Origin: Tubulanus polymorphus
Taxonomy: Eukaryota; Animalia; Nemertea
Reading direction: 5' to 3'
DNA: 64,000 nucleotides
NCBI RefSeq assembly: GCF_964204645.1
Contig: NC_134025.1
Coordinates: 28,314,299 to 28,378,298, forward strand
The number at the start of each line of letters is the position of its first letter. The first letter of the stretch is position 1. Position numbers and translations under genes: made by a program. This document shows, piece by piece, positions 1 to 56,582 of this stretch. Below the pieces are notes generated by a model, which did not search any database, had not been told where the DNA came from, and saw only the letters and a list, made by a program, of their open reading frames with translations.

Positions 1-87
1 CTAACAAGTTTATTTCAATTGTAAATACAGATCATTCTTTTTAAGAAGGAAACACTTAATTATCAACCGATCAAAAACAATACATAC

Positions 88-1391: not shown

Positions 1392-2140
1392 CTTCGATTA
1401 CAAGCGCTCTAAATATTGGCGTCAAGTTTCGTAATTTAGACGAAAATGCACTCAAAAAGCGTATAGAAAATCCGTGGATATGTTTTTAGTAACAATGGAG
1501 GATCGGAGTAGCCAGTGAGAGGGCGCCACAAGACGGTCATAGATCGAAAATTGAAACTTCTTGTTTAACGAACTGAAACGTCGGTCGAAAAACCTCAACT
1601 GGGTTCGAACCCGGGACACCCATTTATCCTTTATTCAGTTTTTGGACAATACAGAGTTCCATCTCATTTTAAGATATGCGTCTTACAAGTGAAATCACAT
1701 ATTTTCATCTTTCATGCCATGTACAACCAAACAACCAAAACAACCAAAATGCCACAACGACAAAAGACACAAATGATTAATTAAGTAAATATATAATTTA
1801 TTAAACTAAATATGGTAATTTCTTTACAAAACAACAATTTCGAAAAAAAGAATATTCTTCAATCTCTGATTAACAATTCAGTATATAAATGGACGGTATA
1901 ATCTCAGCGGAACTCTGTGGTGTCATGGAATCTATTTCTTGTTGCAAGGAAGAGAACATCAAGATTTTAATGTATACATATCTATCATAAAAAGAAAACT
2001 TTAAACTTACATATATCAAAACTCTTTAACATGGATTTCACTATCAATCCAACTGATAAGCAATTCACATCCAAAAATTAATTTTCTAAAAATATTTTCA
2101 CATCAGAAATCATTCATAATTCAGTTTATTTACAATTGAA

Positions 2141-5100: not shown

Positions 5101-8100
5101 GGGTACTCTGACGAATAAGCATTCCGAAGTCCACACCAATATCAGCTGTATATCTGAAATAATGACAAATAAAACATTGATCCTTTATATTTCTGCTACT
5201 CTTGTCTTCTATGACACATAAATCGATGGTAGACCATGAACTCACTTCTTTCCTAACACAGAATTGATAAATATTGTCGTTGCTTGCATCAATCTATCAT
5301 TTCTCACTGCTCTGAGTATCAGGAACCGTTGAAGGGGTGCGAAAGTGTCATCCATTTTATCGGGTAGCGGAACCAGTTCTGGGAAATCATTTTCGCACAA
5401 ATTTCTCCATTGCGTTTCGCGACCATCTCGAGGCATTCGGTCAAACATGTCCTGGAACCACGGGAAATGAATCGCCAACAACTGTAGATTAGCGAACTGA
5501 TCATCAAGCATCCAATCAAACGCTTTCTTAGCATTAGCAATTTTAGGATCAGTCGGTTGCGCTGACTGGCCTGCCATGACAGCGGCACCAAATGTAGGCG
5601 AGACAAGAAATTCACGTTCTCCAATTCCAACACGCCCCAAAGAATCCTCGACCTGAAATTCAATAATTTAATGAAAACAAGGGAAATTGTTTTAATGATA
5701 GTGAAAACAACTTGATGAATTCAAAACATACTTCAGTTGCGAGAAGCAGTGTGTAAATAATACGATCTTGTTCTAATAAAGATCTGGCTGTTGTTACGTA
5801 TGACGTCCAAGTAAGTCTTTCAATGACTGCTTTCATAGATGTTCTGAAAAATAGATACAAATGGAGATTCAACAAATTCGACCACCGTATAAACTAACCA
5901 GAAGTATTTTTGATGTGTATTATGTGATTTACCTGTCCGAATGATTGATAGCAGTATCATAAACACTGAGGAACTGATTAAATGACGTCTGATATAGAGG
6001 ATTGATTTCACACATATACTGACTCGTATCAAACAGTACAGCAGCTCGTTTAGAGATTAATCTGAATCCTTCTCTCGCTTTCAATATCGTACTAATAGCA
6101 GATACAGTTCTAGATTTACTGAAATTTGAAATACATGATATACAATATATGTTATCCAGTTCAAATGCATTCCATTAGCCAAAGTATTATCTGAATGGGA
6201 GGGTCTTAAGATGCGTCGTGAACTCGTCTAAATCCATAGATTGGTAGCGACAGAGATTTGTGGGATGCATATTGATAAACTCTTGATCCAAATGATAGCC
6301 TCACCTTTCAATAGATTCATCATAATGCTTTTTCAAGTCTGCAAGTTTTTTAGTCGTCGATAAATCATTCATGAGACGAATATCACTTCCTAAACACGTT
6401 ACCATTTCATCATCTATCTTTTTCAGGACTTCCATATGTCCCAAATATTCCTAAGAGAAATATGACGATAAAACTGAATGAACTGTTTGAATGGACACCG
6501 ATTAGTTTAATAATCAAGCAGTAATTTCTACCTCGTTTAGAATCGTCTCCTCTTCTTTCAGACGAGTTTTCTCTTTCTTCATGAATCGATCGAGAAGCTC
6601 TTCCTCGATACAACTGCGAGACAGATTGAAACGGATGACGTTGACGTACGCGCAGAGAATGTGCGGAATCAGATGAGGCTCGGTAGATGTGTGTATAAAC
6701 AGACGGAATGAAGGCTGACATTCAACTTCATGATCACCAACCTAAAAATACAGTAAATCTATTAGAATGACGGATGATTTACAGTGAGTTTCTGATGTAC
6801 AAATAAACATCATAAATATCGTAGTTACCATGATTTTGAAAGGTTGTGAACCATTCAAAAATGCTTCTTTCTTGTTTAAAACGACTCTGAACCTTTGATC
6901 AACGCTCAGCTCATCACAGTTACAATCGGTAATCAATAATGGTTGACCATCAGACAATGATGTTTCGAGCTGCGATCTCAGATCCTGAAAAAGATAGTTC
7001 ATACTCCATGAAGCACATCGAACACAGTTAAATAGAACGAAATATCATATTATATGAATATCAATGAAGATAAAGACTTACATGGTACCGAACAACGACT
7101 AAATTACTGGATTTTAGATAAAACTTCATCCAGTCAATTATACGACTTGTAGTATCACAAATCAGTGGCCAAGCATTTATACTCTGTTCCTGCATCACTA
7201 AACTAGCATTCTCTAGCATCAGAGGAGTCTTAGGAAGCTCCAATAAATCGAGCTTCTTAATCTCGATCTGTAATGAATATCAAAAGCAAGCCATATTTGA
7301 GATGAAGCTGTTGGTAAAATGTTGGAAATCTCATTACAGAGAAAATTTTTCAACATACCGGCGTGTACAAGAAATCAATAAGTTGTGTATTCCTGAATAA
7401 CTGTTTTGGGTTGAGTTTGATTCCGTGATGTTCACAGGCATACATGAAAAACTCACCAAGTCGCTTTCTGAAATCATATCAGATACGGGTAATCGATGAG
7501 ATTTGAGACTTGAAAGTTAGTTTGTAATACAGCCATTGACTATTATGTTTACCTAGTATCAGTAGCCATACTTCCACAGTACACGAGGAATGCAGCTGCT
7601 GTGATACTGTTTGCCAACAAGGTTTCATCAGTTTCATATTCTTCGACAAACTTCTGCCACAGTTCTTCTTGCGTTTTCAGGCTAGAGAATTGAAATAAAA
7701 ACGATAATTTCTCTGATAATTATAAAAGACCATCAACTCTTTCATGCTCAAGGCTTACTTTTCGATCATATCGGTTGTTGCTTTAAGGCGTTCTTTCATC
7801 GCTAACAGTTGCATGTCATATGAATGTTTTTCAACAACCGATTCGTCATATTTAGCTTGGAGTTCATCAACTAGTTTTTGAATCTTTTCCAAATCGTCTT
7901 GGGTATAATCATCCATTCGTTCCTCTCTGGCTGCGTCATCTTGATCTTGTGTGTCCTGTAGCTGAAACAGTACATAAAATATGCATCAGTTATGCTATCA
8001 AGAGAGGCTTATAGCGGTAGATTAAATGACAAATCAAATGGGAAGCTTATTATGAACTAACACATTGTCTAGTTGAAAAGAAAAGAGCTATTATGAAACT

Positions 8101-11100
8101 AAACTAAACGTGTTCTAACTACATTCTAGGCATGCACGTAACTTGGTAAAGTTGTGTGAAGTAAATTGGACAGTAATATTAGTTCATAGTAACAAAAGGA
8201 ACGTGTTAAAATAATTTTTGTTAAAATGCACAAGTATAGAGACTTTTTAACAAACATACAGGAATTAGAGGAGATTTTTACTAAAGGGACAGCTTTGTAA
8301 TAAAATAAAAATTGGTAAATTCAGGCATTTGTTATGATCTATATATACATTGTAAAATATCATACTTTTGCCTCAAATTCTTCATCTTTCTTATGTTGCT
8401 GTAAACAGGAACAATATTATGATGTATGTAAGTGTACCTGTGCTAATGAATAGTTTGTAGCAAAGAGATTAACAGAAAAAATTGAATGTGTTCTCTAAAT
8501 GGATGTTCTAGTAAGCGCAGCTTCAGGAAATCACTACTCAAAGAGTGTTCAAGTGTGTGAATTACATGTGTAGAAATTGACTTGAAGAATATGATTTCTA
8601 ATTCCAACTAAAAGCTTTCATCCCTTGTCTGAGAAAGATCATCAAAAATCCATATAGAGCATTTACGGAAATAAAATATTCACAGCAATTTATAAACTCA
8701 AAGAACATCTCTCTCAATCAATGACTCACCTTAGCTTCTTTTTCTTGTTGTTTCCTTTCATTTTCTTCGATTTCTCGTTCAAGTTCATGTTGTTTTTCAA
8801 GCGCTGCTTTCAGAGGCTGACAATACTTCGTGTATTCCACGATGGCTATAGTATATTGAACGAGAGTAGCGGCATCTTCACTAGCGAACCTAGCAGCAGC
8901 TAATGTTATACCTCTCGTATTGTCAGGTGAAGGTGTTCGTCGCGTTGGCGGAAATGGTCGGTTGTCTAAAAAGCAGGTTTAAGTTTTATATATGAATATA
9001 AGGTAAATAAAACTAAAAAGTTTTCGGAGTTTATGATGATATTGCTACCTGGTGCATTTTCTAAAAGAGTTCCTTCTCCAGTGATGCCTAACTGACCATC
9101 TCGACCTTTAGCCAGGAACGATTCAACCGATTTAGAAACATCGGTCTTTAAACCATCTTCCCATTGAACGTTGTGTAACATATCGACAAACTTTGTTGTA
9201 TCATTCATCGCTTGCGTAATGGCTTTCCACTGAGCTCGATCAACACGTTCATTCAGGCTCTTTTCTTTAGAAGAGGCTGAAAAATTGAAATATCCACTCG
9301 TGTATTCATCTATCTTATATCAATGTTACTCTACTGGGGTACTGCTAGGTTGTCAGATTCGTGTGCAGTGTGGAAATTCAATAGCCTTTGGTGTGGGGAG
9401 TGGATAAGCATTAAAATAAGCGAACACACATTATTTTCTTACAATATACATGTTCAAAACAAATTCAAGAATGATTCTCATTTAATAGTTTTGTTATAAT
9501 TTGCATGCAAGGAAGGATGTTAGTAAGTTACTTACGCATTTTAACTGATTTAAGTTTTGCACTCGCTTCACTACCTGACAGTCGACTGCTGCTTTCATCA
9601 CGAGGATAGTTTATAGAAGCCGATGAATCTTTAGTGTCGGGTCTGTGCGAGTTTGGAACGCGCTTCCCAATCAGTGTCATAACCATTTCCATGACTTGTC
9701 CGACTAGTAACGGCGGGCTTCCGAATGCCTTTAAACGTTCGATGCAACCGCGATCAACTTTACCGCGCCATAGATTCACCTGAATTATCATAGAATATTT
9801 GCTGTATTCATCGATATCTATTCAAAACTATTAAGTGTTGAGTGTAAGTCGTACCTGTTTTCGTGCGCCCTCGAGCTCGTGACGACAATGTTCAACTTGT
9901 TTAATCGAAGCCATCAGTTCCTCTTTAGCTTTCACGTGTCTGTTACGCATGTTTTCCTCTCGTAAACGATCAAACTCTTTGTCATATTCATCATAATCAT
10001 CTATGAGGAATATTATCGAAAAATTCAGGAATATGAAAATTACAGAGATAGGAATGTAATTTGAACCCACATTATGATTTCTTCTGATAAAGTCAATATG
10101 TTATGAACAATTCACCTTGTTTTAGAAGATCATCTTCTTCTTCGTCGTCAGAAGACATTTCATTAAGCTGCAGGAAAGCACTAAGAGCATTACTTTCGCC
10201 GACTTCTGCCTTCAATTTTTCGAGTATCGTCACTTTCGTCGTTAGTTCTCTCAGAATTTGTGCCGTGTTAGATTTAGCTTCGTCATATTTTCCTATGATG
10301 TGTTTGATGGCTTGACGCATCGTCTTCGCATCAGTTCGACTCTGAGCCAGAGCAGCTAAGACTTTTCTACGAGATTCAAGAGAAATTTCTAGCAAGTGTC
10401 TTTTTAGAAAGCTGGATGGAGTTTTGAAATTGTAACTTACTTCAACTTTTCTACAGTTTCAGTTCGTTCAATCGATTTCTTGTTGTAAATATGATAGAAT
10501 GTATTCATGAACCGACGATAGGTCAATGGACCGACAAAAACTTCATTCTTTCCGAGGCCACTAGCCAGTCTATGCTTTTGTCTGAAAAATGATCAAATAA
10601 TCGACTAATTAAAACAAATTGCTGAATCTAAATCTCTCAAAAATAACATACCAATCTCAACTTACTTAATATTTTCCAGTACCATTGTCTTAGAGTATGG
10701 TAGGTTTGGTACTTTGATCGATGTTGATTTGATCAGATCTTTACGTTTATCTTGAACGCGTATATTTGTCATCATGATCTCTTCACTTGCGTCACCGGCC
10801 CACGGTATTTGTTTACTCTCGGTCAGGATGAAATTGTGAATATTTGCCATACAGTTGATCACACTTTCGCTGTTAAGAATATGAATATCACTGTATAATG
10901 ATGGTTTCTTTTTTCTAACAAATATTTTCTCTGAATATGTTATTATACCGCAGCTTACCCAATTTCACTATCAACGAAAGCAAACTGTTTTTGAGCGGTG
11001 AAAAAAGAGGCTTCTTTGAGTAAGGCTTCCTGTGGCCAATCGCAAACCCAATCAACTTGACATCCACTCAGCAATCCTGGATATTCACTACAAATATCAA

Positions 11101-14100
11101 ATCACGAAGTCTTATGATGTGGCCAGATATTTTTCAATATAAACATGTAAGAGAAGTTTTTTTGAAAACAACTATTACCTGGCAGCGCTATACACAAGAT
11201 GATGTCGAGGAGGAAGGCAAATAATTATATGCAAATTACTTTTCACTCTTGAAACGAAGAACTTCATCGGATCTGCGAGAAGAGCAGGATTCTCACGCTT
11301 CAGAGCTGGATAAAGTGCCTGTAGTAAACCATCCATTTCATCATTAGAAAATAGATGTAGATATTCTCCAGCGACTAGAATACTGTTTATAGCATCCAAA
11401 TACGAGTCATCTTGTAAATCACGTGCCTGAAATTAGAAACGAATTGGCAACATTAATTCAATCCTGTTCATATTCCACTACAGATAGAAAGAACAACTAC
11501 AACTGTATATTGTATGTAATGGGCTTACTGTGAAGAGAAGTGATAAGACTTTTCCCTCTGAACCGCTCATTCTAACTGCAGATCGTAAACCATCGAAGAA
11601 CGTATTCGGTTTACTACTATCGATAGGTAGAATGGGAATATCTGCGACATGAAGAGCCAGTTTACACAGCGTCGCCAGACGAAATCCAATAGCACTGATC
11701 AGCAATGCATTACCGCTGAAAATACCACAAAATAGCCGCTGAATCAAGCGATTAATGTAAGAAAATCCACTTCATAAAGATTTTCTAGTTACTTGATCCT
11801 TGACTTACCCGTGATGCAGACTTAGAATGCGATGCAACCTAACAAGATGAACTATCACTAATTCAGAGAGTGAAATCTCCAGTTGTACATTTCCAAGTTC
11901 TTCGTTATAACGTGTTTTCTGAGCTTGTAAACACGTGAACAAATCTGCATATTTTTCAATAGGCTGTAAGGCAACTTTGACTTGTTTTTGCCCAGTAACT
12001 GAAGTCATCGGTCTCTGATACACACGCATATCAATTGGGAATGTAACAAAGTTTTCGTGAAGGGATCCTTCTTCCAGATTTGGCCAGAACTGAAAAACAA
12101 GATTTCATTAGATTCACCACAGCACAAGGAAGGACATGTATCAGGCAGATATTGTTCTTATTTGTAAGTAAATTACCTCTTCAACGATTTCAGTTACTTT
12201 ATTTTTGAACCAGCTCACATCTGAAGTTCTACAAATTCTATCCCCGATGATTCGTTCCATTTCGTGTTTCCACAAAGAGAGAACCATTATTTCATCCGCT
12301 CGACTTTCATCTGGCATTCTCTTTAAACACTGTTAAACGATAGAAATACCAGGTGAAAAAAAGGTTGTTTCTATTGAGTTGAACCAACCGATTCAAACAG
12401 TTTTAATTACCTGGAAGCATTTCGTAACCTCCCTCAATGTAAACAGATAATGCTGTCTGCCAGGCATATTTGTCATTCGTAATACAGACTGTACATCAGT
12501 GAGCAGTTTACAAGATGCACCAGAAATAGCGTTCTGTAAATCGATGTCTAAACCTGGTTGTTCGTTCTGTAACATATTGGCTTCCAATATTCCGCTAACT
12601 ATATTCTTCAAAGGTTCATCTTTTGGCATTCGAGTGCGAAGTACAACAAAATGACGCTGTAAGAGTGAAAACATGGCTGAGTTTGAAACATCTTTCAATA
12701 GCCTTTATACAGCCCCCGGCTTGGAGATGTCCTTTTCTCAAATCACCAGACGATGATCTCTAGGGTGAGATCGAAACGTCGTGTCTTTTAAATATTTTAG
12801 ATTTAATAAATAAATTCTGGTTTTTAAATTCTTTTAATCTGTAAATTGTGGGATTTTATCTGTATTTATGTGTGTATATTAATTATTTGTAATCAGAGAG
12901 AATAAAGCATTCATTCATTCATTCATTCATTATTCAACCCCCTAAGCCTCCAACTTACCATTAACCTAGAACTGAGAAGCCGGTTTACTACACTGGGTGT
13001 TTCACTGAATGACATAGCTGCGAGAATAACTAAATCTTCCACAGAACGCCATTCAAACGGTTTCTGCTGCGTGCACAAGACTTTATCATCGAGTAGTTGT
13101 CTTAACAACTGAAAAAAAAAAACAATTTCACATTCTCTTCATACTGCCTTACTTCATTTTAAAGGATGAATTGAGTTGAACAAAGAAATCAAACTAACCT
13201 CATTACATTTCTGCACACCGTACTGATCAGGAACTGGTAGATTCAAGTCATCGATGAACAATTGTAACCTCTTGTTGTCTTTAGCGCCATAAACAAATCC
13301 TAGAATAAAATTCAAGTGATTAGATGACCTTTTCCTCACAATCCTGTTAAATGCTTAAATGTCTATTTCAAATATACCTTGTCTGTGATAGATATTTGAT
13401 TCTATGAATTGATGGAGTTGTTTAGCGGTTGATGCTCCGCTGTAAACTAATTTTTTGCTCACTCGGGTTTGAGAATCTACAAAAAATTACGATTAAATTA
13501 CTAGAAAATTCCCAAAAATAGAGCAATACCCGGTATATGCAGTATTAATACGGTGCTTACCTTGACCATTGATGAAGTCATTGACTATGACAGTTTTACC
13601 AGATCCAGGAGGTCCCACTAGTAGAACGTTTTGACCAGAAGCTACAGCGAAATCCATCAACACTCGAGTTCGGATCTGAAATCATAGGAATGATTCACAG
13701 TATTCTTGCTCAGTTAGAAGAAGTCTGTAGTAAAATGAATGTCTCACATACCGTATCAACTGTATCAATAACTATCTCTCCTAATTCATCCTGATTATCA
13801 GAATAAACTGCTTCAGGTACCCTGAAATCGAAAGAAAATCATGCTCTTCAAAGACTGTAATTTATAGTGAGGTATGACTAAAAACTTTTCTGAGCTTTCT
13901 ATGTACCTCGACTGCCAGGGGTCCCATTCTCCAGATTCGTCGACGTAGTAATCAAACACACAGATATCTCGATCGTCATCGGGTAACCTGCAAAATCATA
14001 GACAATCATCGTTCATACTTTCAAGCAAACTGTGTTATGAATCCGGGATTTTCCAGCCAAATTTTGAAGTTACTCACGCTGATGACAATGTCTTCAATAA

Positions 14101-17100
14101 ATCGCTGAATGTTTTACGTTCAGCGTCTTCTAATAAACCACCAAACGACCAGATCAAACAGAACAGGTACAACCTCTCAATGTGCAACTCTCCACCAATT
14201 TGTACATTATCAGCTAGCATGGCTGACAACAGATTGAGACAACTCTTGAACATGCCAACTTCTGTCAAACGGATATTCGGCCTGGAAAAAAGATGAAAGT
14301 TAGATATGTTCGCTCAAAGATGAAGGATTCTAAGACTTAAACACAAAGACACGATGAACTTACTTAGCTTCATGCAAAACATAATGACTAATTGCATCCA
14401 CAGTGTTATCAAAGGCTCTCTGTAACACCTGTACAAAATAAGTAGATACTTCAGTTTTTTTTAAATAAATGGTAACTTCTTAGAAACATGAAATGATGTT
14501 TCCATTTCTTGGTAAATTCTGTTCAGAATGCCAAAGTTTTTCTCTACATCGATTTCAACAAGCCTGTCTATTGTAATAGAAATAACTGCATTGAATGACA
14601 ATATTTGTAGGAGAGATTGAGAAGCAAAGCAGAAACCGACACAAATGCATAAGATGGAATGTATGCACATCACCAAGCGAAATAGAATAGACAATTACAA
14701 AACCCACATAGATACATAGGATATATGCAGAATAGATAACACACAACACCAAATAGCAATTACTTTATAGTTCAAACTGACATGAATGGAATTCTAATTA
14801 CGATATTCAAAATACTGCAGGATAGAATCACAATAGCAAGTGATGCACATAAACCAACATGCAACCAGTGCAAGCGAAATGATTATATAACTCATCATTC
14901 AGTACCAACTGAGAAATACCCCGGTACTACATAGGACTTACTTCCTGCAAGAATAAAGGAAGCATGGAATTATTTTTGACAAAGTCAATAATCGTGGATT
15001 ATACTAGTCAACCTAAAGTTCACTCTCTATTATTTCCTGATCACAGAATGAGAAAATCTCAAAAGATAAGACAATAGATTTACAATGATTTGTAAATGAA
15101 GTTGAATAATGGGACTTACGTTCACTTCTTGTTGAGATCTTGTCTGCATCCATGCTTGAGCAATAGGTCGCCATCCAACTACAGTTTTACCAACAAACAC
15201 GATGCCCTGAATAAAATTTAGATTTTTATATCATAGGTCTTTGATTCAGGTTTGACAATACATCTAAACATCAAAATACTTACAGCTCGTGAGACAGTAG
15301 CTGGTGAAGCTTTCGTTAGATCATCCGTCTCAAACAACAGTTTGATATTATTGGACAAGAACAATCGATCACCATTTCGAAGATGTAGTGTCTGAAATGA
15401 TATACTCGTTTTAAAAGTATTTCATAAAAGCAGAGAATGAAATTTGAGTGGATTTGTGGCAAATACCTTTCCTGAATCTAATACAGTACTGAAGTTATCA
15501 GCCCATCCAGCGTTTAATGGTCCATCTAATGAAAGCCAAGTCGTGCATTGGTTCTGAAAACAAAGAATTTGATTCTTAATCAATAAAGAAATCACAAAAT
15601 TTTATGGTAGAAGTTCAAAGTTCCACTTACTCGACTCGCTTTCTTCCAAGCAGATGTGAAAATACCATCAATCCAATCCATATTGTGCAAATATCCGAAC
15701 ATCAATGAATCGTCATCAACGACTAATGGATTTATCTTCTGCAAGCGATGGTTCATTTCAGCGGAACCTTTCATACTGGATGCCGAATGGCGCGAGAGGC
15801 CTCGTGGATTATCCGCGCACAGAGCTGTAACTAAACTCTGAATCATTCCGGATTTACCAGATCCCGGCGGTCCGGCAACAATTATACCTAGAAATCAAAC
15901 GACATTAATTTGTTAATTGTCAATGCACAAACTGAAGTACTTTTGATCACAGTTTTCAAATCGTTACCTCCGTGAACCAACGAAACGTTGTAAAGTTGAA
16001 TACATTTATCGACCCAATCTTTAGTCGGAATCAGTCCATTTTCTTTCGCAGTAGAATGTAATGTTAATTCTATTTCCTGTATACGCGTATGCGCTGAAAT
16101 GGCTCTATGTGAACCAGGTGGATCTGGTAAACCTTGAAATACATCTTTCACGATCTGAGTGAAGACCGAACAGATCTGAAAAATGATGAAATTTTAATGA
16201 AAAAATTCAAACGTGTTCAAATATTTTCATATCATAAACCGATGAATACATACATCACCACTTAATCGTGGACCGATGATTTCTAGTAAGGCTTGTCCAA
16301 CAATAGAATGTTCCATCTTTGCAGCAGGAGTGAGAGGATTTGGAGTACCAGTTTTACGACTGTACCGATCAGCTGGAGTTCTTCCCTGCGAAACTATTAA
16401 CATTTATACACAGTTAGATATTAGAATGAATGTACGTTTATCTGTTTGAGACAAAACTAAAATGAAGTGAACATTAGAAACTATGTTGAATCTATTGTAA
16501 TAAATAAATCTACCTGTAAATGTCTAGCTATGTATGGTTTTTGAAGATATAAATATGGTAAATGAGAAAGTTAAAAGACTACGATTAGAACTGTCTCGGA
16601 GATGTTGTCAATTTTCTGAGCCCAAAAAATTATACATGCTAAACAAGCAATACTCGACTAACCACTATCTATACCTGGAGCCAGTTTTTATAAGTACTGG
16701 TTTGGCTAGAGAGAAGAAAATTGCTGCAGGAAAGCACTAATTCAAATTATAAAATGTACCTTTCTTTTTACGCTTTGAGCGTGGAGAACCATGACCTAAG
16801 TCAACATTGTAAAATACAAGAATAACTGAACATAAGTGCGTGGAGAAAACTTACGAAACTCGCCGGAGTATGGTTGAAAATAAAAACTGGACAGAAAAGA
16901 AGACATTAAAGGAATGAATGCTGTATTAAGGAGAGACATACCATTAGATGAACTGTGCTGAGCGTAAACTGATTGATTACTGCTCGAACGAGTCGCGTCT
17001 GCTTTATCGAATGATTTTTCTTCTCTGATGAGTTTACGTCGATGACTGGCGAATCGTAACACATTCACAAGTGATGAAACACTCAGGTTGTGATGATCTG

Positions 17101-20100
17101 CTACTGGCCTGTCAAACATACGATTAACTATCTTAATTCATTCATAATCAATAACATGAGATGAATAGATCTCAACCAATGTGCATTTGAATATGAGAAT
17201 CAAAAAGTTATTTGCTTACAGTTGATCTTTAGAAAGTTCCATGACAATCTTGAGGCGGTTGCTGAGAATATTTGGTGCACGGAATCCTAATCCTGAACAC
17301 TTCAATTTCAGAATCATGTTATAATCCGGTTTGAGTAAGTTGACAGTGCGGAATAGTGACTTGATTTCCATTGGGAGTTTGAATTTTGCAGATGTGCTTT
17401 GATTGATAGTGAGGAACAGGGTAGTAGAAGGATTGATCAATATCTGAAATGTGCACATAATGTGTTTCATTCGTTCAATGAAATTCTAAAAAATTCTCGA
17501 TTTGATCTAATCGTATACTAGAGTGTTAAGTTAATATACCTCTTGTCCATCGCGGAGTGTACATGTTTCTTTTGCGGCTCTTAAACTTCCATATATGGAT
17601 GAAACATAATCGAGCAGAACAGATAAACACTCTCGATTCATTGAGTGAAGTTCATCAAAACATCCCCAACATCCATCCTAAAGATAGGATATACAATGTA
17701 TATAATCCATCAACGAGTTAAAAAGTAGTTACACTGCCATAAAGTATAGTGACCAATAGGAATACTAACCATAGCAAGTCCTGTAAGAATCTTTCCCAGC
17801 GCACCAGGATCGGAATGTTCCGAACATTGGAATATTGATAAGTGATGGCCCAACAACTGAGCGAAACCCTGTATTTAACAAAACACTGTGAATAGATGAA
17901 TAAGCGTAAAATTATTAAACCTCCAACTGAAGACATTGATTATATACTTACACTGACGGTTTCAGTTTTACCAGATCCAGTACCTCCGGCCAGTGTGACC
18001 CCCGTATGATTCTGCATATATTGAGCCATTGATATGAAACAGCGTTCGGTAGTCGTAGTTAATGAAACAACAGGTTCAGCGCCGTAAAACTCGCAACCAT
18101 AATCGTATTTTGTATCCAACATATACAAACATGGTTTCAATTCACCGCTTTCATCTAAAATACACGAATACCGGGTAATTGAAAAAGAAATTCGAGAAAA
18201 AATGTTAAAACTTATTGCTTCGTTATATAATCAACAAACCTGTATCTTGTAGATAGCATCGCATATTTCTTCTCCAATCAAAATCAGTAGGTTCTCTGAT
18301 TTTTCTGTTGGCCATACTGTCCAGAACATCGCGTAGATAGATAGAGTACTGTTAATAGAAATAACAGAACATTTAACTTGTAATTTCTACACAGACAGAT
18401 ATCAAACCTATTGTGAAATATACTTACAGTAATCAGATTCTCTAATCTCAAGCGATGAACCGCTGTAAATGGTTCTTCAGCAGTTTTCGCGTAACCTCTG
18501 CTCAGCACAGAGTTCAGTTTTCCCATATTCGTCGAGAACTTTTTGCCCAAGTTGTGCAGAGCTTTACGATCATATTTGATCTCTTGGACACCGACTTCGC
18601 ATTCTTTAGTCCAATAGAACAACATTCCAAACCGACAAATCTGGGTCGGATACTAAAAAGAAGATAGAATTGGTAAATGAAGGTAAAAAATGAAGTTGCA
18701 GTTCAACCAAATTTCTGCGATCTATACCTTTAATACAAGTTCTTCCATAGAAACTCCTTTGTTTACATCTTGCATCACTTCATTGAACAAAACTGACAGA
18801 GACTTATGAATAATATCCTTCAAATGAGTCAACCAAGTTTCAACTCCATCTGCTAATGATACCTACAAATAACAACAAGATAGAGATTCATTTATAACTA
18901 TGATGAAACTATACGCATGAATGAATGAATAGACGGCAATGATTGATTACCTTTTCACATAACTCAAGAATTTCACCTTCACAGCTTATGACAGCGCTAG
19001 CCTCCCAAGTTGTTCTTTCTTGTACAATATCTTCTGATGGCAGCAAAGAAATGTGATGTTGAATTGCGGCAGGAATTTGCTGAAAATTCACAAGAACATT
19101 TTATCATACATTTCACACACAAAGTTTTTAGCGGCTTATAATGCAGGCCCTATTTAACTGTGCCCAGGATCAGCTCCAAGAAAAATCCGAAAACGTCTTT
19201 ATAGCCGGTACCGGTACTATAAATTGAAAAGAGGTTTACTGTATGTAAATACGATTTGAACTACAGGGATATTACAGCAGGATAATAATGCTTTCACACT
19301 AAGCAAGTTACAATAATTAGCATCGATAAACCATAATGTTGTTTTTAGATCATGTATTCAGTGATTATCGACTCTAACCTAGTGAATTAAGCATGCGATC
19401 AGTTGGGAATGAAGCAAATTTCAATCAGTCTCAAAAATACCATGCATATGTCATAAATGTTGTTGGTGTTTGTTGTGCGTAAATTGAGCTATTTTAGATG
19501 TAACTGTAATTGAACGAAGCGTGATAAATGCATCTCTTATAATATTGATATACCTGCGGAGGTAGAGCTGGAGGGTTGGGTTGGGATAAGGCAGTCTTTA
19601 TCATCAGAAAGAAGAACAAATCTTTATATTAACAGCACATAAATCACACACATGCAGAATTTACCATTAAACATTGTTACAAAACGTGCAGCATGCAAAG
19701 GGAAGTGAAATTATAAAACAAGATGAGATATGACACAGCTTTCAATCAACTGGATATAACCACTCATTCCAACAGAACAAGAAAAAGTAATAATATAGAC
19801 AGATACATGATATACAAGCTCAAATCAATGTTTCTTTCAAATAACAAGAAAAACAACAGCAAGAAAACAAAATAATTATAGGACAGAAACAACATCAACC
19901 AAACCACCAATAGGGCTCACCTTTCTCGGTTTTTTCTGCAAAATTCCCTTCAATTTGTCTTTACCCTAATTCATGATTCAATTTCAAACCATAAAATTAC
20001 GTATCGCACATAGGTTTTTTATCACAGTAGCTAAGGCTAAGATTTAGAATGCCGGGTGTGGAGCTTACCTGTACGTGGACTAGTCGTTTGTCTAGTTTAG

Positions 20101-23100
20101 TTTGAGCAGTCGGAGCAATAATTGGTTGAGAAGCGAAATCAGTAACGACACTCGTTGGTCGAGTTGTGTCTTCATGGACCGATGGATTTTGATCTAGAGT
20201 GATTGAACTACCCATAACTGCTTCTAACTTCAAATCTCGAACAGCAGTAAATATAGACCTGTGAATATAAATCATTTCGACATGCTTCACTTTACTTGAT
20301 TTTGTCTTATAGAATGAACTCCTAAAAAAAACTTACTTTAGGTAAGGTTTGATGGAGTCCAGTTCATTCGGTCGACTCAGGATTGCCAGTAGTATAGGAT
20401 CAGAAACGAAGAAAAACCTAGGAAAAGCCCTTCGTTTACTGTCGAGATAACCGATCAAAGATTTGAAACATATCTCTAGTTCTTCATGGAAATGTTTGAG
20501 CACAACACCCTTAGGGACCTCTCCACCGTAACAACACTGAAATCATGAGAAATAAGTTAAACTTTGGAGAAGAAGATCAGGATCAAAATCAGTGCTTTGG
20601 ATGAATATGACGATTACCTGCAGGACATTTCTAGTGTCATAAGCTCTTTTCATCATTTTTGTCCAACCTTTATCAATGCGGCTGAAACGTTTTGCTTCTT
20701 GTGGCAGCTCCTATGAAATAATTCATACGCATTTACGAATGTACTTAATAAATTGTGTTTGAATTATGATCATTGCCAGAATGAGTGTATGGGATGCATG
20801 CAATATATTTATCCTTATTAAATGATTTGAAATTATTTTCATGCAAATTAGTCACAAATTGTATCAGTCATGCTATTATTTCTCATTCGAAGGGAAAATA
20901 TTGATAGTCATATTAAGATGAATATTTCAGTTAAGATCTGTGGTCAATAATGGTTTGGCGATTAAATTTTTAACAGTTCTACTGTAAACCAGTGACTCGA
21001 ATATTCAGTTATATACTTTGCATTTAGAATATACATAAGTAAATGTACATGCAGTTTAATTTCCACGAAGAGCAATTAGAGATAACTGATAATGAAGCAG
21101 TAATGATAAGAATATTTCAGCAATTGCATAATAGATAGAGATGAGATCTTATATGTTTGATAATAAGATAACAGTGTTTCAACGAAAATTGAATATAAGT
21201 GAATTTATGTATTTCCATGTGCCATTGTTGTGTTTCAATGCTGTACATATGTACAGCCCAAAGCTGTGATTTTGGCAACACCAATGTGTGTAAGGCTCAA
21301 AATATACCATCACAATAGACTTCCAAATAAATCCAACAATTGTTTGTATAAACGGATTCAAATAGAAATGTTTCTATTATTGATGGTTTCTGATGAAGTA
21401 TATTTCGGGTTATTTCACAAAGTGATGCCTGTAAAGTGGCTGTCATAATTTTTTACCATCTCTTCAGATCCATCAAGATATGAAATTACCACAGGAGCAA
21501 AGAACGACTGAAGAAATTAATGAAGCAAGGAATAATGAATGTTATGCATTTGATGATAATCATTGATAAATGTTCATACTTTTAACTGAAATAGAATAAA
21601 ACCTGTATATTGTATGCCTAGATTCCACACATAAATTCTCGGTAATGTAGATATGAAATATGCATATACATGAGACTAAAACTCATCTTTTTTGAAATGC
21701 AAAGCCGTCAAGTATAAATATAGTAAAACGCCCCACTAAGCAAAATTCAGATTGTACAATGGAAGAGACCTGCCAAAAAATTGCTGCAATATACTCAGTG
21801 GAACCAGTAGGGGTTCGAACAAATGAGTTGTCTTGATCCTAGAAACACATTTCAAAAATCAATCAATTCTCAATTTAGATAAAATCAAAATTGATGCAAA
21901 CCTAAATGGATAAAGATCACATAAAATACAGGAAAACGTGAGGAGGATTTCACCTGAATAGTCTACACTTCTCCAAAACGAAATAAATGTATGAAACTAA
22001 TTAGAAGAGATACAAGTAAATGTACCTTTGATGCAGTTGGGTTGCTGAAAACGGCCTCTAAATACTGCCATAAATCTTGTACTTCGAGCCACTGTTCTAG
22101 AACCTCCCCGACCTCTTTCAGTTTCTCAGCCCATGATGCGGCTTCCTCTCTCAACGGACCGATGTGACGACTCGTTAACATGTTCGCTAACAACGCTTGA
22201 GCATCTTCTAACTGTTCCAGCAGACGCTCCGTGGACAGTTTCTCCAAATAGATCGGACCTCGGCGTTTGTACGGCTCGAATGTCAAAACCTGTTTAAACA
22301 CATTCACACAGAATAAGGATTCAATGTATACGACAGTAGTTTAGGGCGAGATTGCAGAGTGTGAATTAACCGATAATGTTTACCTGTTCTGTCCATTCCT
22401 CTTCAGTCACACGCAGTTTTACTTCTAATTCCAACTCCTTACCAGCGCATCGGCATATCTCTTCAATTTCAGCTCTGTGCCTGGAAAACATCGCAACACG
22501 ATGCACCAGGTTTATCACGGTTATACACAGGAAGTAAGACAAGACAAGATATTTCATAACTCATACTTGATCAGCCCAATGTCCAATAGATGACAATTCT
22601 TGAACATGTTTGCTTCAAGTGGGAATGAACTACCGGTTACTTGCATTACTTGCAGCCAGTGACGATTACGAATTTCCTAGAATTAAACAATAACACAACA
22701 AACTCATTCAGATGCATTAATTTATATGAAGTTTCAGAAAAGATGAATGATGTACACCATTTAACTTAGAAATGTAACAAATTAACTTGAATGAAATCTC
22801 AAACTGACCAACTGATGAGTAATCAAGAAAGGCAAAAAGCAGAATAAGACTAACTCGGTACTTACTTCTATATCATAGCGTTGTTCTCTCTAAAGTTAGT
22901 ACAACAAAGAACAGACAACAAAAACAGTTAGCATCGAAATTAGAAAACGTTAATCGGAGATATAGAGACTCACATCTAAACCAGTGCTGTATATGAGCTG
23001 AAGCAACAACACTACTACAGTCATAGTGTCTAAATCATCTAATATTAACAATGCGTGTACGTTTCATTTAGTATCTAGCAGTGTTGTTAGATAGTCAGTA

Positions 23101-26100
23101 TTTTTGTTATCAAAATAAACCGATCTACTATCTATTCTTCTTACCTTGGATGACAGTTTATGCAAAAGCGGAATAACGTCCAGATAGTGCTGTATAGCGT
23201 TCTTCATGTCCTGATAAGCGTCCCAATCTTTCAGTTTACTCGGCAGAGCCAAACATTCATCCCAATAACCTTCCACCTAAAAAAAACATCCGACTTCATA
23301 CATTTTCTCAATTCTAGTCTAGGCCTATGTGAAGGTGTAATAATAATATCTATTCTGTACATAGAATATCTCAACAAACTTTACAGATTATAGATATAAA
23401 ACATTGGACAAATAAATAAGATACCGGTAACTGTAAAAAAAGTTATGTTTAGAGTGTCAGAGATTGAAGTGAATGAAAAGATTTGACATGTCACAATTTA
23501 GATGAAAGGAGCTACAAATGTATACACATAACAGGCATATAGTTAGCTAGGTTCTTTCAGAAATATTTCAGAAAATAGATTTTCATTTGAACGGAAAAAA
23601 CCAGTCTTATGTACCTCATTGTTAAAGTCACCTACGTATCAATAATGATAAAAAGATTAATCTTATTCCTAACACATAATTCTATCAGCATACCTGTTTC
23701 TTAATAACCTAAAAACCCCAGATAAAACGAAACCACAATGAACGAAATGAATACAAACAATGATTATTTGTGTAAAGATGAATATTTGATATTGTATATG
23801 ATTTACCTCTTCGGTCGCATTTCGTAAATCGACATCAGACCACAATGTGTCCCTGAAGTTGTTATCAAACCTGATGAACTTTTGGAACAGGCCGTACAAC
23901 TGACCAAGAAGATCCAACTCCTGCAAAATGGAAATAAATTACACAATAAAATCATATGAAATCAATCACTTTGGTGGTTTAGCTCTGTTTAGCTCTGTGA
24001 AACCGACCTCTCCTGTTTTATCCAGTTCTGGGAATGGTTTACACGGAATACCGAACAATTTCGATACAGAGTCTAGTGTGCGTCTTTTTGTGTCATATGC
24101 TGAGAATTTCTGCTGGAAATTGTGAAGTCTGGCAACCGCTTCAGCTGGTGGAATTCCAGGAACAACCGGTCCCTGAGCATCAAACGCATTGCGGAACTGA
24201 ATTACTTCAACAACGAATGTCTGAAAACAAAGTTCATCATTAGAAATCAGTAGTTTGAATAAAGACTACATGTTTAATCATCATGGTTAAAACTTGGTAG
24301 AATTTACCTTAACTTGTTTGTCTAATTCCTGTTCAAAAGCCACACGTCTCTCCTTCAGAAGAACGTGTCTCAGATTATCTGCCAGTTCTAACAATTCCTG
24401 CCATTTATCTCGCAATGAATCGACGTTTTCCACTTCATGACGAGGCAAACGCAATTCAAACTCTCTGTTAAATGTATCAAAATATCAATTACTCGCAAAT
24501 ACAAATTCACATTTATAGATAGACACGAAAATATGATATAAATATTGTTGATAAAGAATGTGAAATACGTATTAGGAAAGTGTACACATGCTCTATAAAC
24601 AGATTGGTGTCAAAGATACTGGTGGTTAATGGAATTCAAAAACCTCACCTGAGATGGCTGTACATTGTTTCTATCGGAAGATAAATTGCATCGATCTTAT
24701 TCTCCATGTCTTGTATTTCCTCCAGTAAGTGTAATGTACTATTTAACTGATCGAGGTTTAGTACACTAAGCTCTAAGCGACTGCAAACATTCATACGATA
24801 CAATAACGCCGCATCCAGCTTTTTCTATAAACCATGCAAATAAAAAGTGCCATGCAAATTCATACATGAAGTGATATAGTGATATATAAGATAAAATTAA
24901 AGAAAATTATTCTAACCTTAGCTTCTTCATGTAAAACTGCTGCGTATTTGCATTTCCAAGCAACAGCAAATCCGTGAAGGGCATCTTTGATCAAATCAGT
25001 TTTCAAACACACAGGTCCGGCGGGTAGGTTTGATGGAATATCATCGATGTTGCTTTCAACCCTCTGCAATCGTTCGACTTCTCGACGCAGAAAGTACGGT
25101 CCCGGTTCGTGTTGTATGAACTCGGTGAAATTGCCCTGAATGTCGTCTTTCCATAAGAAATCATACATTTGAAAATGCATGATGTGCTTGTTCAATATCA
25201 GTTCTAAATCTGTATAAAGACGAGACAGATAAATTAGCTACGGACGAGACAAATCAAAACAACAAAATTAGGTTTTCATTTATACCTGCGATAACAGAAC
25301 TCAATTGATGAAACATATCCTGAATAACCTTATCATCATTAACATGTTGAGAAAAGGTTTCTCCAATGTCATTACCGTTATTCCATTTAACACCTGAAAC
25401 ATTTCAACACATCTTTCTAAATCATGCCTCCTATAACTTTCTACAACCTCATAGAATCATATTTCTTAATAGCCAAATATTTCCTGATAAAAGGTTTACG
25501 AACCTTTCACGACATCTCTGATTGCAGAAGCAATGTTATCAATAGTAGACTGAATGGCGTCCATCGCAGGATTTAAAGTGATGTTTGGTATTGCGTAGTT
25601 TACTGTCACTTCAAACCTAAAATAAACCCATCGCAGTCATATTAGAACATGATCAACTACTAAAATGTGTTCATATTCAGAGAGTTATTCACTTGTTCCC
25701 TAGTTACCTCAGATATGTGATTTCTGCAGTTCTTTCTGTTGTCCATGTCATGTTTGACAGCATTGACATGACGGACACCGGGCGTTTATCCGATTTCGCT
25801 GACATCCCTCGACTGAGCGGTCTCGGAGTAGGTGCTCCACTCAACGATACAGCAGAATTCGACATCAAACTCACAGAACGGACAAGATCGCTGTCGCAAC
25901 CACAAGATTCAGCCAACGTGACAAGAGATCGGCATGTGGCAGTTAGAATCGCTTCATAGATATCATCACAGTAGTAATCTGAAAGTAAATCATGAATCAA
26001 AATTCATCCAAAATGCTTATAGCTACTTGAGAAGATTTTCTGGGAAATAAAATTACCTAACAACTCAGAGACTATGTAATCCTCAGGGTTACTAACTGAT

Positions 26101-29100
26101 GACATGCCATAACCACTTCTGGAAGCAGTGAGTAATTTCATATCTCGGCTCTTTGACTCGGATTTAGTCACACTAGACGTCTACGGACAAAAAAAAATCT
26201 GATATAATACAAATATATATCGGCTTGAATCTAGATTATCTCGATCACAACAAACTACAGGAAATCATACAAAAACATAGCAACCATCACCAAGATTTTA
26301 AGCCCATTAAGGCAACTCGACAACTAATTTCACTTATAAGTATAAGTGCTACCAATAACCAATCAGTTAAACAGTTAATCAGTGTTCAGTTAAAGTCAAG
26401 AAACTATAGCGTTATATTTGTCAACTGCGGTGCCAGAGGATATTGAAATAAGAATTACGTTGTCGCGTAAATCATTCATGCTCATTTGGAATCTATTTGA
26501 ATGAAGTCCATCACTTTCTGTTCGCATAGCTTGCAATATAGTAGCTACGGCTTTAAAAGTTAATTTCTATAAGCAAAATAATTCGATTAAAAGATGATCA
26601 GTAATAGCATGAATTGATTCAATACATGTTTGATGCTAGAAAGCAAAGCAAATGGTCCCATCTTAAATCAGAAGGTCCTATAAAAACAATTCAATAAACT
26701 GACCTTTCTCTGAGATAACATATTGGCAGCTTCTCTCATTCCATTCTCAATAATCAGTATACTATCGTACAGATCCTGTGCTTTAAGTTTGATCGAATGC
26801 AACATATCGACAGTGAATTCTTCAGTTGGCTGAAAACAAACAAATCATTACGTACAAATGATACTTCATTAGGTTTAGCAGTTTTTCAAAAAACAAAATG
26901 ATGAAATTTACCCATATTTTGGAGAATGCTAAGTCAATGTCGAAGAATATCATTTCAGAAATCTTAGTGATTGTGTTGACTATTTTGGTTGATATGATTT
27001 CATTGACTCGTTCAACTTGATATTTCAATTTTGCAGTCGCGGTGTGAACTTGATGTAGAAATGCATCTGAAAGCAGAATAGTAATTAGATCAATTCAGCC
27101 TTGAATAACAATTCGAGTTCCAAAGTTTTAAGAAATCTTACCAATATTCATGCTATTCCAAGCTAATGTAGAAAGTCCTGGTTGAAGCTGTTGTTTAACA
27201 GATTCGATGCTGTTCACAAATAAACCTTTAAAAGGTGCGGGGATTGCTTCGCGAACATCTCGGAACTCTTTCAAACAGTGCTCGATGTTGTCCTTGTATT
27301 TCTTGAATCGTAATTCTTGCTGTAAAACGACCATGGCCGATTCGGGAATCTGAATCCCTAAACGCATCAACCATTTCGCTTCTTGTATCAATTCCACAAC
27401 TCTGAAAGATTAGAACCATGAATTGATATGAAGTTTATCAAAATTGACTGGATAAATCTCAAAAATTTTTTAAATATGAATGAAGAATAGAATATTTTAC
27501 CCTTCATCAGTATTAGCAACAATTTCCTTAGTCTGCGGATGATGAATAAGAAGTGTAGCTTTCAATCCGATCTTCGCTTGTTCGATATGAGCTCGAAGTT
27601 GTCCAAACCACAAACTCTCAAACGTCACTAAAGCGGTCGCTAGTTTATTATAGATTCTCACGATACGACCGTAATCTTGAAGACACGTGACAGCTTTTGT
27701 TTCTTTGAAAATACGCATCGGATCCTCGATTTGATGAAGCAACTGGCGAGACCAGAAAATTGCACCGGCAACCGGGGGTGCATTCCTGGGCATCGGTGGG
27801 TTTTCCTAAATATCAGAATATTTAATACATACCGGTATATGTATAATTGATGAATCCAATTTAATGATATTCTAGCGAATGACAGCAGTATTTACCTTAT
27901 GCTTCTCATAAGCTTTCTGTACTTCGATCAAATCATCTTCGTACATATTGAAAATATCGACGTATTTCTCAGCGATGACGTGTTTTACTCCGTGACGATG
28001 AAGTATTGGAGAAAATCTAAAATAGACGCATTCGATTAGTGCTTGATGAAATTATAGAAACATTAATGCTCGACGGGGAAGATTGCTTACTTCGTAAGAA
28101 GCTGTAAACTTTCTTGTGTTTTCATTTTGCGAGCGAGCACAGCGTGAATATACGCTTCGATAAAACTTTCCAATTCTTTAACGATGTTCTGAAAGCTTGC
28201 GTAAGCCTCGTTGAAAATACCTTTCTCCTGTGATGAGAAATAGATGTAGATAAATCGAGATATAGAAATCTAATAAGATTTTATGACCTATAACTATAGA
28301 AATAGGAAGATCATATCGATGAATTCCGGAATTTAAAGGTACAATAACATTGAGTGGTTACTGATCATAATTTGGACAGATTAGAATAAAATTTCTCAAA
28401 CTTCAAACATTCTTAAACTTTGTGTATAAATTCTGAGCTCCGCAGTATATGGCCGTAGAAAGGGGATGAAAATATTTTTCATGATTTTAACGTTTTTTTC
28501 AAAATTTTTTAAGTACATATTCATTTTTCACATCATTCTACCCCCTGAAATTTGACGTACCTTGCTTTCTACATCAAGCATTACTTTCGTATTAACAGCT
28601 TCTAACATCGATTGTTTCATATCATTGATATGATCGCGTACAATCGATATCACACTCGGGCCATCATCAGTATCCTCCATGTGATAATATCGTTCAAGAA
28701 TATCGACCTCGTCTTGAGTCAACCCTTGAGAACCGTACAGCATTTCATAGATATAATTATCATGCGGAGATTTCTCGGCCTCATGAGCTTCATCGGCGAA
28801 CTCCGGAGGTAACTCAATACTGTTATGAGCTTCTTCCTTTTCTTGAGGTTGCGGAACATCTTTCTCTTGGCTAACGACGATTTTAACCTCTCCAGCTGTG
28901 TTCTCTTGTTGTTCGTTGCCCAGTTCTTCATCTTCGGTTATTGTGATCAGATTTCCGTGTTCGGATACAGAAGGTATCACGGGATGTGGTTTTCCATCTT
29001 CATTTGGTTTAGGCGGGGGTAAATCTGTGGGGAAAATACCAAATCAACTCAAGTGAAACTGGTAGCCTATTATCATTAGAGCTAAGAGTTGATATTGAGG

Positions 29101-32151: not shown

Positions 32152-32560
32152 AAGAAGCGAACTGTGGCACGCGAGAAACGACGAGAGGGCGCCACTATAC
32201 GGTAATAGTAACAGTGATTTCTGACAGGTAAATAAGTATTCTGTCTGTGTTAATTCTATGATCGATAGTTCCATCAGTCATTTGAAAAATTAATCCATAT
32301 TTACGACTCTCTATATATGATTTATGTCACCAGACTGGGGGTGATTGTTATTCTGAATACTGAGACATTTTAGAAAAAGTGAGTGTATGGCCCGATCTCA
32401 CTGACTGACTGTTGTTGTCCAATTTCGTAACTGCTAATAATAGATTTGCCCCCACTATTCCTATATAGAAAGTATTTTGTATACAGGAATAGTTCAGTTT
32501 ACGTCACAGTAACGTTTTGTGATAGAAAACATATTTTACTTTAAATCAATTTTTTCCAGA

Positions 32561-55065: not shown

Positions 55066-55230
55066 CACCTGGAAAATTAAATTCACAATTCAGTAGTTAT
55101 CATCCTAGTGTAAGATTTATTCAAAATGAGTTACCAAATATTTTGATTGTCAGTTGACTCATGCCGGTGTTCATCGGCAAATAAAGCCGATGTCCGATTC
55201 CGCCAAACTACATGTATTGGTTACCCAAAG

Positions 55231-56541: not shown

Positions 56542-56582
<41 letters not shown>

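What the first reader, a model, noticed from the sequence alone, without database searches (positions are those of the whole stretch)
17040..18010. Dynein AAA1 keeps Walker A/B but loses near-invariant sensor motifs: possible atypical or weakly active motor class
Seen: Walker A 'GGTGSGKTET' and Walker B 'CFDE' are intact. However 'CFDEFNRI' reads 'CFDELHSM', 'FITMNPGYAGR' reads 'FLTINQSTSAK', and 'HYDFGLRNILSVLR' reads 'HHNLSVSSLVNVLR', replacing the sensor-II arginine with Ser. Known: these motifs are almost invariant in cytoplasmic and axonemal dyneins, and AAA1 is the main hydrolytic site. The gene appears full length, every junction I traced kept the frame, and an X-box lies upstream. Inference: a maintained divergent DNAH5/8-related paralogue, perhaps structural or regulatory in the axoneme. 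This is the best candidate for an undescribed system in the window.
Basis: partly seen in the sequence, partly recalled or inferred. Interest (0 to 1): 0.78.

Follow-up and report, generated by a model that had tools for sequence, protein, structure and literature searches.

The report
Ribbon-worm non-motile dynein (DNAHX) gene
This is a complete, spliced ribbon-worm copy of DNAHX, an already described family of animal dynein proteins whose main ATP-burning site has decayed, so it is likely a non-moving scaffold or brake for other dyneins in sperm tails rather than a new kind of motor.

Summary
The motifs lie in a 93-exon, stop-free, 5,315-aa dynein heavy-chain gene (31796 to 2144, minus strand). 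Its protein is identical to RefSeq XP_074662754.1 of the ribbon worm Tubulanus polymorphus. A spliced contig confirms every AAA1 junction, so splicing does not restore the motifs.

The protein is 53% identical to the sea-urchin DNAHX reference (Chai et al. 2025 preprint) and about 30% to DNAH5/8. It sits in the DNAHX clade (support 1.0; grouping with DNAH5/8 rejected, p-AU 5e-49). It carries the family's AAA4S, stalk and microtubule-binding-domain insertions. The sensor-II arginine is absent in 48 of 48 DNAHX rows and present in 42 of 42 canonical rows. By analogy with the sea-urchin cryo-EM structure, it is probably an ATP-bound, non-motile head. The X-box was not confirmed.

DNAHX probably equals Kollmar's 2016 class-12. 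A side result: a Chromosphaera protein branches as sister to DNAHX, with a decayed AAA1 but no AAA4S insert, hinting at a pre-animal origin. The scan has already found DNAHX on other DNA (octopus).

The parts
2141..31796 (-). DNAHX dynein heavy-chain gene: 93 coding exons, 5,315 aa, ATG at 31796, TGA at 2141-2143
   Evidence: Spliced alignment with all GT..AG introns and no stop; 0 differences from XP_074662754.1; 25 of 27 listed spliced-contig joints equal the model
17952..18154 (-). Exon 38 with AAA1 Walker A (Lys2291 and Thr2292 kept; Ser2289 where canonical chains have Thr and sea-urchin DNAHX has Val2221)
17770..17868 (-). Exon 39, AAA1 large domain
17540..17677 (-). Exon 40 with Walker B (Asp2337-Glu2338 kept; following Asn-Arg replaced by His-Ser)
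17220..17443 (-). Exon 41 with sensor I (Asn2389 kept; Pro to Gln, Tyr to Thr as in sea-urchin T2324)
16942..17108 (-). Exon 42 with the sensor-II helix (Arg column = Ser2461) and the start of a DNAHX-type insertion
16311..17035 (-). Low-complexity insertion (~70-90 aa, spread over exons 42-44) in AAA1 small domain, shared with DNAHX orthologues and absent from DNAH5/8; limits approximate
15287..15289 (-). AAA2 arginine finger (Arg2783), kept
11676..11678 (-). AAA4 P-loop: Leu3348 in the Lys/Arg column (Leu in 45 of 48 DNAHX rows, none has Lys/Arg)
10554..10805 (-). AAA4 small-domain insertion (~54 aa), homologous to the DNAHX PS2i insert; limits approximate
   Evidence: 29 of 63 aligned residues identical to sea-urchin DNAHX
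9930..10212 (-). Acidic insertion in stalk coiled coil 1 (~34 aa); limits approximate
9242..9656 (-). First insertion in the microtubule-binding domain (read as Chai's pre-H3 insert; assignment inferred from alignment)
8898..9115 (-). Second insertion in the microtubule-binding domain (read as Chai's H5 insert; assignment inferred)
7908..8780 (-). Insertion in stalk coiled coil 2 (~38 aa; includes 33-nt exon 71, which the X2 contig skips in frame)

Best explanation
The gene is the ribbon-worm orthologue of DNAHX, and it likely encodes a non-motile dynein head that binds ATP at AAA1 but hydrolyses it poorly or not at all. Shown here: an intact, spliced gene inside the DNAHX clade; Walker A Lys-Thr, Walker B Asp-Glu, sensor-I Asn and the AAA2 arginine finger kept; sensor-II Arg, the sensor-I loop and the Asn-Arg after Walker B lost; AAA4S, stalk and microtubule-binding-domain insertions present. 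Inferred from the sea-urchin orthologue (PMC11785096): ATP stays trapped at AAA1, the AAA4S insert pins the C-terminal cap so the head stays pre-powerstroke, and the broken stalk binds microtubules weakly. Proposed there and untested in any animal: the chain pairs through its DNAH5/8-type tail with another heavy chain into an inhibited phi particle (dynein-X) that holds or delivers axonemal dyneins while sperm flagella grow.
For: Identity 53.2% (2747 of 5165 aligned) to XP_041462850.1 against 29.9-31.1% to five DNAH5/8 chains. DNAHX clade support 1.0 in the motor tree (48 of 89 rows) and the tail tree (46 of 84 rows). SH-aLRT 100 in 16-row trees that leave out the AAA1 and stalk columns, under LG+G4 and LG+C10. 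Holding the window protein with animal DNAH5/8 is rejected, p-AU 5e-49. At 70 columns where DNAHX is derived, it has 63 derived, 0 ancestral and 7 other residues. All described insertion types are present; length 5,315 aa, with 37 of 48 DNAHX rows over 5,000 aa and no canonical row over 4,851. Cryo-EM of the sea-urchin chain shows ATP at AAA1 and no post-powerstroke state (PMC11785096; Results, Discussion, figure legends and supplement text read).
Against: No activity, location or partner has been measured for this protein. It keeps more of the catalytic set than many orthologues (Walker B Glu in only 29 of 48 DNAHX rows, arginine finger in 33 of 48), and it has Ser, which keeps a hydroxyl, where the sea-urchin chain has Val in Walker A, so slow hydrolysis is not excluded. 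The non-motile claim rests on one preprint and one species, on structure rather than enzyme or gliding assays. The expression evidence is one contig from one study, tissue unknown, run kind not on record. The trees contain no class-4 (DNAH9/11/17), class-11 (DNHD1), class-13 or dynein-2 chain.
Confidence: 0.86

Rival explanations
1. It is a DNAHX orthologue but keeps slow ATP turnover, working as a weak or drag-producing outer-arm-position dynein rather than a fully dead head.
For: Walker A Lys-Thr, Walker B Asp-Glu, sensor-I Asn and the arginine finger are all kept, with Ser rather than Val in Walker A. The DNAH5/8-type tail suggests docking at outer-arm sites, as PMC5100056 (section 10 read) proposes for class-12.
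Against: The sea-urchin chain keeps the same four elements and is still ATP-trapped (PMC11785096). These columns vary freely across DNAHX, as expected if catalysis is not selected. The Pfam stalk family PF12777 is listed for none of the 58 DNAHX-tier rows (one row's list was cut) and for all 62 other rows.
Confidence: 0.11
2. It is a lineage-specific, newly diverged DNAH5/8 paralogue, an undescribed motor class.
For: The nearest canonical relatives are DNAH5/8-type chains (for a sea-urchin orthologue against solved structures). The RefSeq entry is named only 'uncharacterized protein'.
Against: It is nested in the DNAHX clade beside Lineus, with orthologues from cnidarians to amphibians. AU test against grouping with DNAH5/8: p 5e-49. 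It shares the insertions.
Confidence: 0.02
3. It is a decaying pseudogene, or the motifs are an artefact of wrong exon choice.
For: Two of 27 spliced-contig joints differ from the RefSeq-guided model, and the contig skips one 33-nt exon.
Against: Those differences keep the frame and lie outside AAA1; the model corrected for one joint and the skipped exon is 5,309 aa with no stop. All AAA1 joints match. Identity to Lineus is 56-70% in each of the ten main regions and 47% in the AAA4S insert.
Confidence: 0.01

Closest known systems
DNAHX / dynein-X (Chai, Loustaunau, Zheng, Yang, Zhang 2025 preprint, PMC11785096; reference XP_041462850)
   Same: Same clade, length over 5,000 aa, decayed AAA1 Walker A, sensor-I loop and sensor II, Tyr-to-Thr change in sensor I, AAA4S insert, stalk and microtubule-binding-domain inserts, DNAH5/8-type tail, marine invertebrate host.
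   Different: Walker A has Ser rather than Val; the sensor-II column has Ser rather than Lys. The protein lacks the ~34-aa second sensor-II-like helix seen in the three echinoderm and hemichordate models printed. The word 'nemertea' does not occur in the preprint's main text (its figures are not held). No structure or partner is known for this copy.
Class-12 dynein heavy chain, DHC12 (Kollmar 2016, PMC5100056)
   Same: Tail like class-3 (DNAH5/8), and a stalk without a typical microtubule-binding site, the two traits given for class-12 (here). Lottia, a species in that paper's domain figure, has an orthologue.
   Different: No class-12 sequence or accession could be obtained (supplement search showed only name tables; one file not searched), so identity of DNAHX with class-12 is inferred from traits. 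That paper did not analyse the ATP sites and dates class-12 to the holozoan ancestor, whereas the DNAHX preprint calls it absent from protists and does not mention class-12.
DNAH5 / DNAH8 outer-arm heavy chains (class-3)
   Same: Sister group; same tail type and domain order.
   Different: About 30% identity; DNAH5/8 keep every AAA1 motif, the AAA4 P-loop Lys/Arg, a normal stalk and about 4,600 aa.
DNHD1 (class-11)
   Same: Also an orphan chain with a decayed AAA1, suggested to be non-motile (PMC11785096, Discussion).
   Different: Reported to lack the Walker B residues, which are kept here, and to have insertions at other sites.

Membership tests
DNAHX | Groups with XP_041462850 as a distinct branch next to OAD-alpha (DNAH5/8) | tested here: met
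   Support 1.0 / SH-aLRT 100; AU rejects placement with DNAH5/8
DNAHX | Closer to the sea-urchin DNAHX than to canonical chains (stand-in for the paper's reciprocal best hit) | tested here: met
   53% against ~30%. A true reciprocal search of the whole sea-urchin proteome was not available.
DNAHX | Unusually long chain (>5,000 aa) | tested here: met
   5,315 aa; longest canonical row 4,851
DNAHX | Non-conserved AAA1 Walker A, sensor-I loop and sensor II with Walker B present | tested here: met
DNAHX | AAA4S pre-sensor-II insertion | tested here: met
   ~54-aa insert, 29 of 63 identical to sea urchin. Sequence only; its hairpin-helix fold was not modelled.
DNAHX | Insertions in CC1, CC2 and the microtubule-binding domain | tested here: met
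   Region is 780 aa against 574 in DNAH5/8; joints confirmed by spliced contig
DNAHX | Folded-back stalk in a predicted model | not tested
   No structure prediction was run
DNAHX | ATP-trapped, pre-powerstroke, non-motile; forms dynein-X phi particle in sperm | not testable with these tools
   Needs cryo-EM, ATPase and gliding assays, and sperm proteomics
Class-12 DHC (Kollmar 2016) | Tail related to class-3 (DNAH5/8) | tested here: met
   Tail tree puts the clade beside the DNAH5/8 group; no class-4 tails were in the set
Class-12 DHC (Kollmar 2016) | Stalk without typical microtubule-binding site | tested here: met
   PF12777 not listed for the protein; below cut-off in a sea-urchin orthologue, 22.7 bits against 139-151 in two DNAH5/8 chains
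Class-12 DHC (Kollmar 2016) | Groups with annotated DHC12 sequences in the motor tree | not testable with these tools
   No DHC12 sequence obtainable
DNAH5/8 (class-3) | Invariant AAA1 motifs and placement inside the DNAH5/8 clade | tested here: not met

The most novel reading that the evidence does not exclude
DNAHX is the same family as Kollmar's class-12 and is older than animals. The ichthyosporean Chromosphaera perkinsii carries a sister chain (EukProt EP01135 P007354, 4,537 aa) whose AAA1 Walker B and sensor-I loop have decayed while sensor II, normal length and a detectable stalk remain, with no AAA4S insert. It would be a living intermediate showing that the ATPase site decayed first and the locking insertions came later in animals. 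The ribbon-worm copy, among the most catalytically complete animal members, would then be a good partner for testing that order, and Kollmar's predicted class-13 chain becomes a named candidate for the unidentified dynein-X partner.
Probability: 0.5. Interest if true: 0.4.

Novelty: new member of a known kind. Interest (0 to 1): 0.2.

Why it matters
For the finding itself, little: it adds a ribbon-worm member to a family already described structurally, and gives a name to a RefSeq 'uncharacterized protein'. The family is still young (one preprint holds the term DNAHX in the library) and its function in animals is untested. The side result matters more if it holds: linking DNAHX to class-12 and to a unicellular holozoan sister would overturn the 'animal-only' origin and order the steps by which a motor became a scaffold.

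Tried and rejected
No whole genome is held, so canonical DNAH5/8 genes could not be looked for in this assembly; the other nemertean, Lineus, has both a DNAHX and a DNAH8 chain. A word-index search with the sensor-I exon alone found nothing among 31 candidates, since only proteins up to 2,000 aa were searched. No RNA holder was listed on record; the spliced contig turned up on laying the runs. No DNAHX-length chain appears among the best 60 of 83 solved-structure matches to a sea-urchin orthologue. X-box not found above shuffle level. LG+C20 trees did not finish; LG+C10 on 16 rows did. One search was a script error, repeated. Supports printed on the re-rooted tree can be shifted along the root path, so the values cited come from the unrooted files. 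One intein-bearing dynein was dropped after because it broke the motif columns; 2 of 91 rows were dropped from the motor tree and 7 of 91 from the tail tree for under 50% cover. No choanoflagellate, sponge or named placozoan row appeared in the 120 rows listed by either protein search; these searches need shared exact words, so this is no evidence of absence. dN/dS was not computed and no structure or complex prediction was run. Paper searches for a link of DNAHX to class-12 or to Chromosphaera listed only the preprint, a DNHD1 clinical paper and a Chromosphaera development preprint (listings only); listings were not read further.
Full report
Observation. Laying public runs on 14000-20000 gave one 5,419-base contig in run X2 that skips GT..AG introns. 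Joining the exons at those joints gives one open frame through AAA1 and AAA2 with the quoted motifs, so alternative splicing does not restore them in this transcript. The run's kind is not on record, it is one study, and the tissue is unknown. In a 91-row alignment the 42 canonical dyneins all keep the Walker A Thr, the Asn-Arg after Walker B, the sensor-I Tyr and the sensor-II Arg; the window protein has Ser, His-Ser, Thr and Ser there. It keeps Walker A Lys-Thr, Walker B Asp-Glu, the sensor-I Asn and the AAA2 arginine finger. The claimed X-box was not found above shuffle level.

The gene. A profile search with the sensor-I exon gave 139 hits; the best long ones are from amphioxus, frogs, bichirs, a caecilian and an annelid. 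A search with the annelid chain listed 120 of 729 hits, with a clear upper tier of 58 rows and then DNAH5/8-type chains. One upper-tier row, P0151, matched the window far better than any other. A spliced alignment guided by it gave 93 exons from 31796 to 2144, all introns GT..AG, 5,315 aa, no stop, with 0 differences from P0151, which is XP_074662754.1, 'uncharacterized protein LOC141915202' of Tubulanus polymorphus. Because that model was guided by P0151, the independent check is the contig: 25 of 27 listed joints equal the model, and the two that differ, plus one skipped 33-nt exon, keep the frame and lie outside AAA1. The joints cover roughly 8700-12500 and 14200-18500; the rest of the model has no such check here.

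Family. A paper search turned up DNAHX. The preprint PMC11785096 (Results, Discussion, figure legends and supplement text read; figures not held) defines it from sea-urchin sperm by XP_041462850, 5,272 aa. That protein is P0170, and its residues V2221, S2322, T2324 and K2393 match the paper's numbering. The window protein is 53.2% identical to it, 62.1% to the Lineus orthologue and 29.9-31.1% to five DNAH5/8 chains. Rows were labelled DNAHX from the score tiers before any tree was built. FastTree then recovered them as one clade with support 1.0 in the motor domain (48 of 89 rows, 3,150 columns) and in the tail (46 of 84 rows, 804 columns), with the window protein beside Lineus. With AAA1 and AAA4S/stalk columns removed (16 rows, 2,246 columns) the clade has SH-aLRT 100 under LG+G4 and LG+C10, and holding the window protein with animal DNAH5/8 costs 2,131 log-likelihood units (p-AU 5e-49). 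The AAA4S insert, the CC1 and CC2 inserts and two microtubule-binding-domain inserts are all present and align with the sea-urchin ones; the region is 780 aa against 574 in DNAH5/8. The AAA4 P-loop has also lost its Lys/Arg in 48 of 48 DNAHX rows. The trees lack class-4, class-11, class-13 and dynein-2 chains.

Mechanism. Shown: intact gene, splicing, motif losses, insertions, orthology. Taken from the preprint for the sea-urchin chain: ATP remains at AAA1, no post-powerstroke particles, the AAA4S insert contacts the C-terminal cap, the stalk is predicted to fold back, and 13% of particles form a phi dimer with another, unidentified heavy chain. Inferred for this protein: the same ATP-bound, non-motile state. 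Proposed only: it packages other axonemal dyneins for transport into growing sperm flagella. Against full transfer: this copy keeps more catalytic residues than many orthologues (Walker B Glu in 29 of 48 rows, arginine finger in 33 of 48), so slow turnover remains possible. But the sea-urchin chain keeps the same set and was still ATP-trapped. One caution on the sensor-II count: the three echinoderm and hemichordate models printed carry two similar helices there, about 34 aa apart. My column uses the second, the paper's K2393 lies in the first, and neither has Arg in those three rows.

Earlier name. Kollmar 2016 (PMC5100056; sections 9 and 10, passages and a supplement word search read) describes class-12 dyneins with a class-3-type tail and a stalk lacking a typical microtubule-binding site, arising in the holozoan ancestor, and suggests a class-12/class-13 heterodimer. 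Both traits fit: the Pfam stalk family is listed for none of the 58 upper-tier rows (one list cut) and all 62 others. The preprint cites that paper but its main text has no 'class-12' or 'DHC12'. I could not obtain a DHC12 sequence, so the equivalence is inferred.

Side result. P0202 from Chromosphaera perkinsii ranked just above the DNAH5/8 rows. It has a decayed AAA1 (Walker B Glu to Ala, sensor-I loop lost) but keeps sensor-II Arg, is 4,537 aa, lacks the AAA4S insert and has a weak stalk match (41.6 bits). It is sister to DNAHX in all finished trees: 1.0 motor, 0.92 tail, SH-aLRT 100 without AAA1 columns. Two placements away from DNAHX are rejected (p-AU 3e-6 and 4e-6), as is DNAHX joined to animal DNAH5/8 alone (p-AU 5e-28). 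It shares 19 of 70 DNAHX-derived residues, against 1-5 for five DNAH5/8-group rows and up to 12 for a long-branch DNAH14. Long-branch attraction is not excluded: the AU tests used LG+G4, the C20 runs did not finish, and only one such protist sequence was found.

Verdict. Real observation, known family: a new (RefSeq-annotated but unnamed) member of DNAHX. Interest 0.2. The scan had already met DNAHX in an octopus window; I had reached the DNAHX reading before that look-up, and an Octopus chain falls in the clade in my tree.

Noticed in passing
protein P0202 (EukProt EP01135_Chromosphaera_perkinsii_P007354): Unicellular holozoan dynein that is sister to DNAHX, with decayed AAA1 Walker B and sensor-I loop but intact sensor II, normal length and no AAA4S insert; possible evolutionary intermediate.
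   Followed up: partly
protein P0170 (XP_041462850) residues ~2383-2430: Echinoderm and hemichordate DNAHX models (3 printed) hold two similar sensor-II-like helices ~34 aa apart. This could be a real insertion or two mutually exclusive exons both included in the gene model; the preprint's K2393 is in the first copy.
   Followed up: partly
window 8366-8398 and 9277-9535: The spliced contig skips 33-nt exon 71 and uses a different intron at 9277-9535 from the RefSeq-guided model; both keep the frame. A 3-base in-frame difference also stands at the 14428/15119 joint.
   Followed up: partly
window 32513-33004 (+): Metallophosphoesterase exon (PF00149) head-to-head with the dynein gene, about 700 bases from its ATG; a shared promoter is possible.
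   Followed up: no
window 49476-53228 (+): Uninterrupted 1,250-codon frame with an EF-hand pair and WD40 propellers, unusual in a window where coding exons are mostly 100-300 bases.
   Followed up: no
window 66-1397 (-), 34176-36566 (-), 54067-55089 (-): Neighbours: an RRM+NOPS (NONO/PSF-type) gene, a Cdc37 gene and a bZIP gene (Pfam).
   Followed up: no
window 38093-47461 (-), 55723-56691 (+), 57044-57850 (+), 60016-60408 (+), 61987-62430 (-): A multi-exon coiled-coil-like gene (two pieces tested) and four open frames of 130-322 codons had no Pfam match.
   Followed up: no
proteins P0158, P0167, P0180, P0201 and others: DNAHX orthologues also occur in pulmonate snails (Lymnaea, Biomphalaria, Bradybaena), Octopus and a caecilian, which by recalled knowledge fertilise internally; this does not fit a strict link to external fertilisation.
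   Followed up: no
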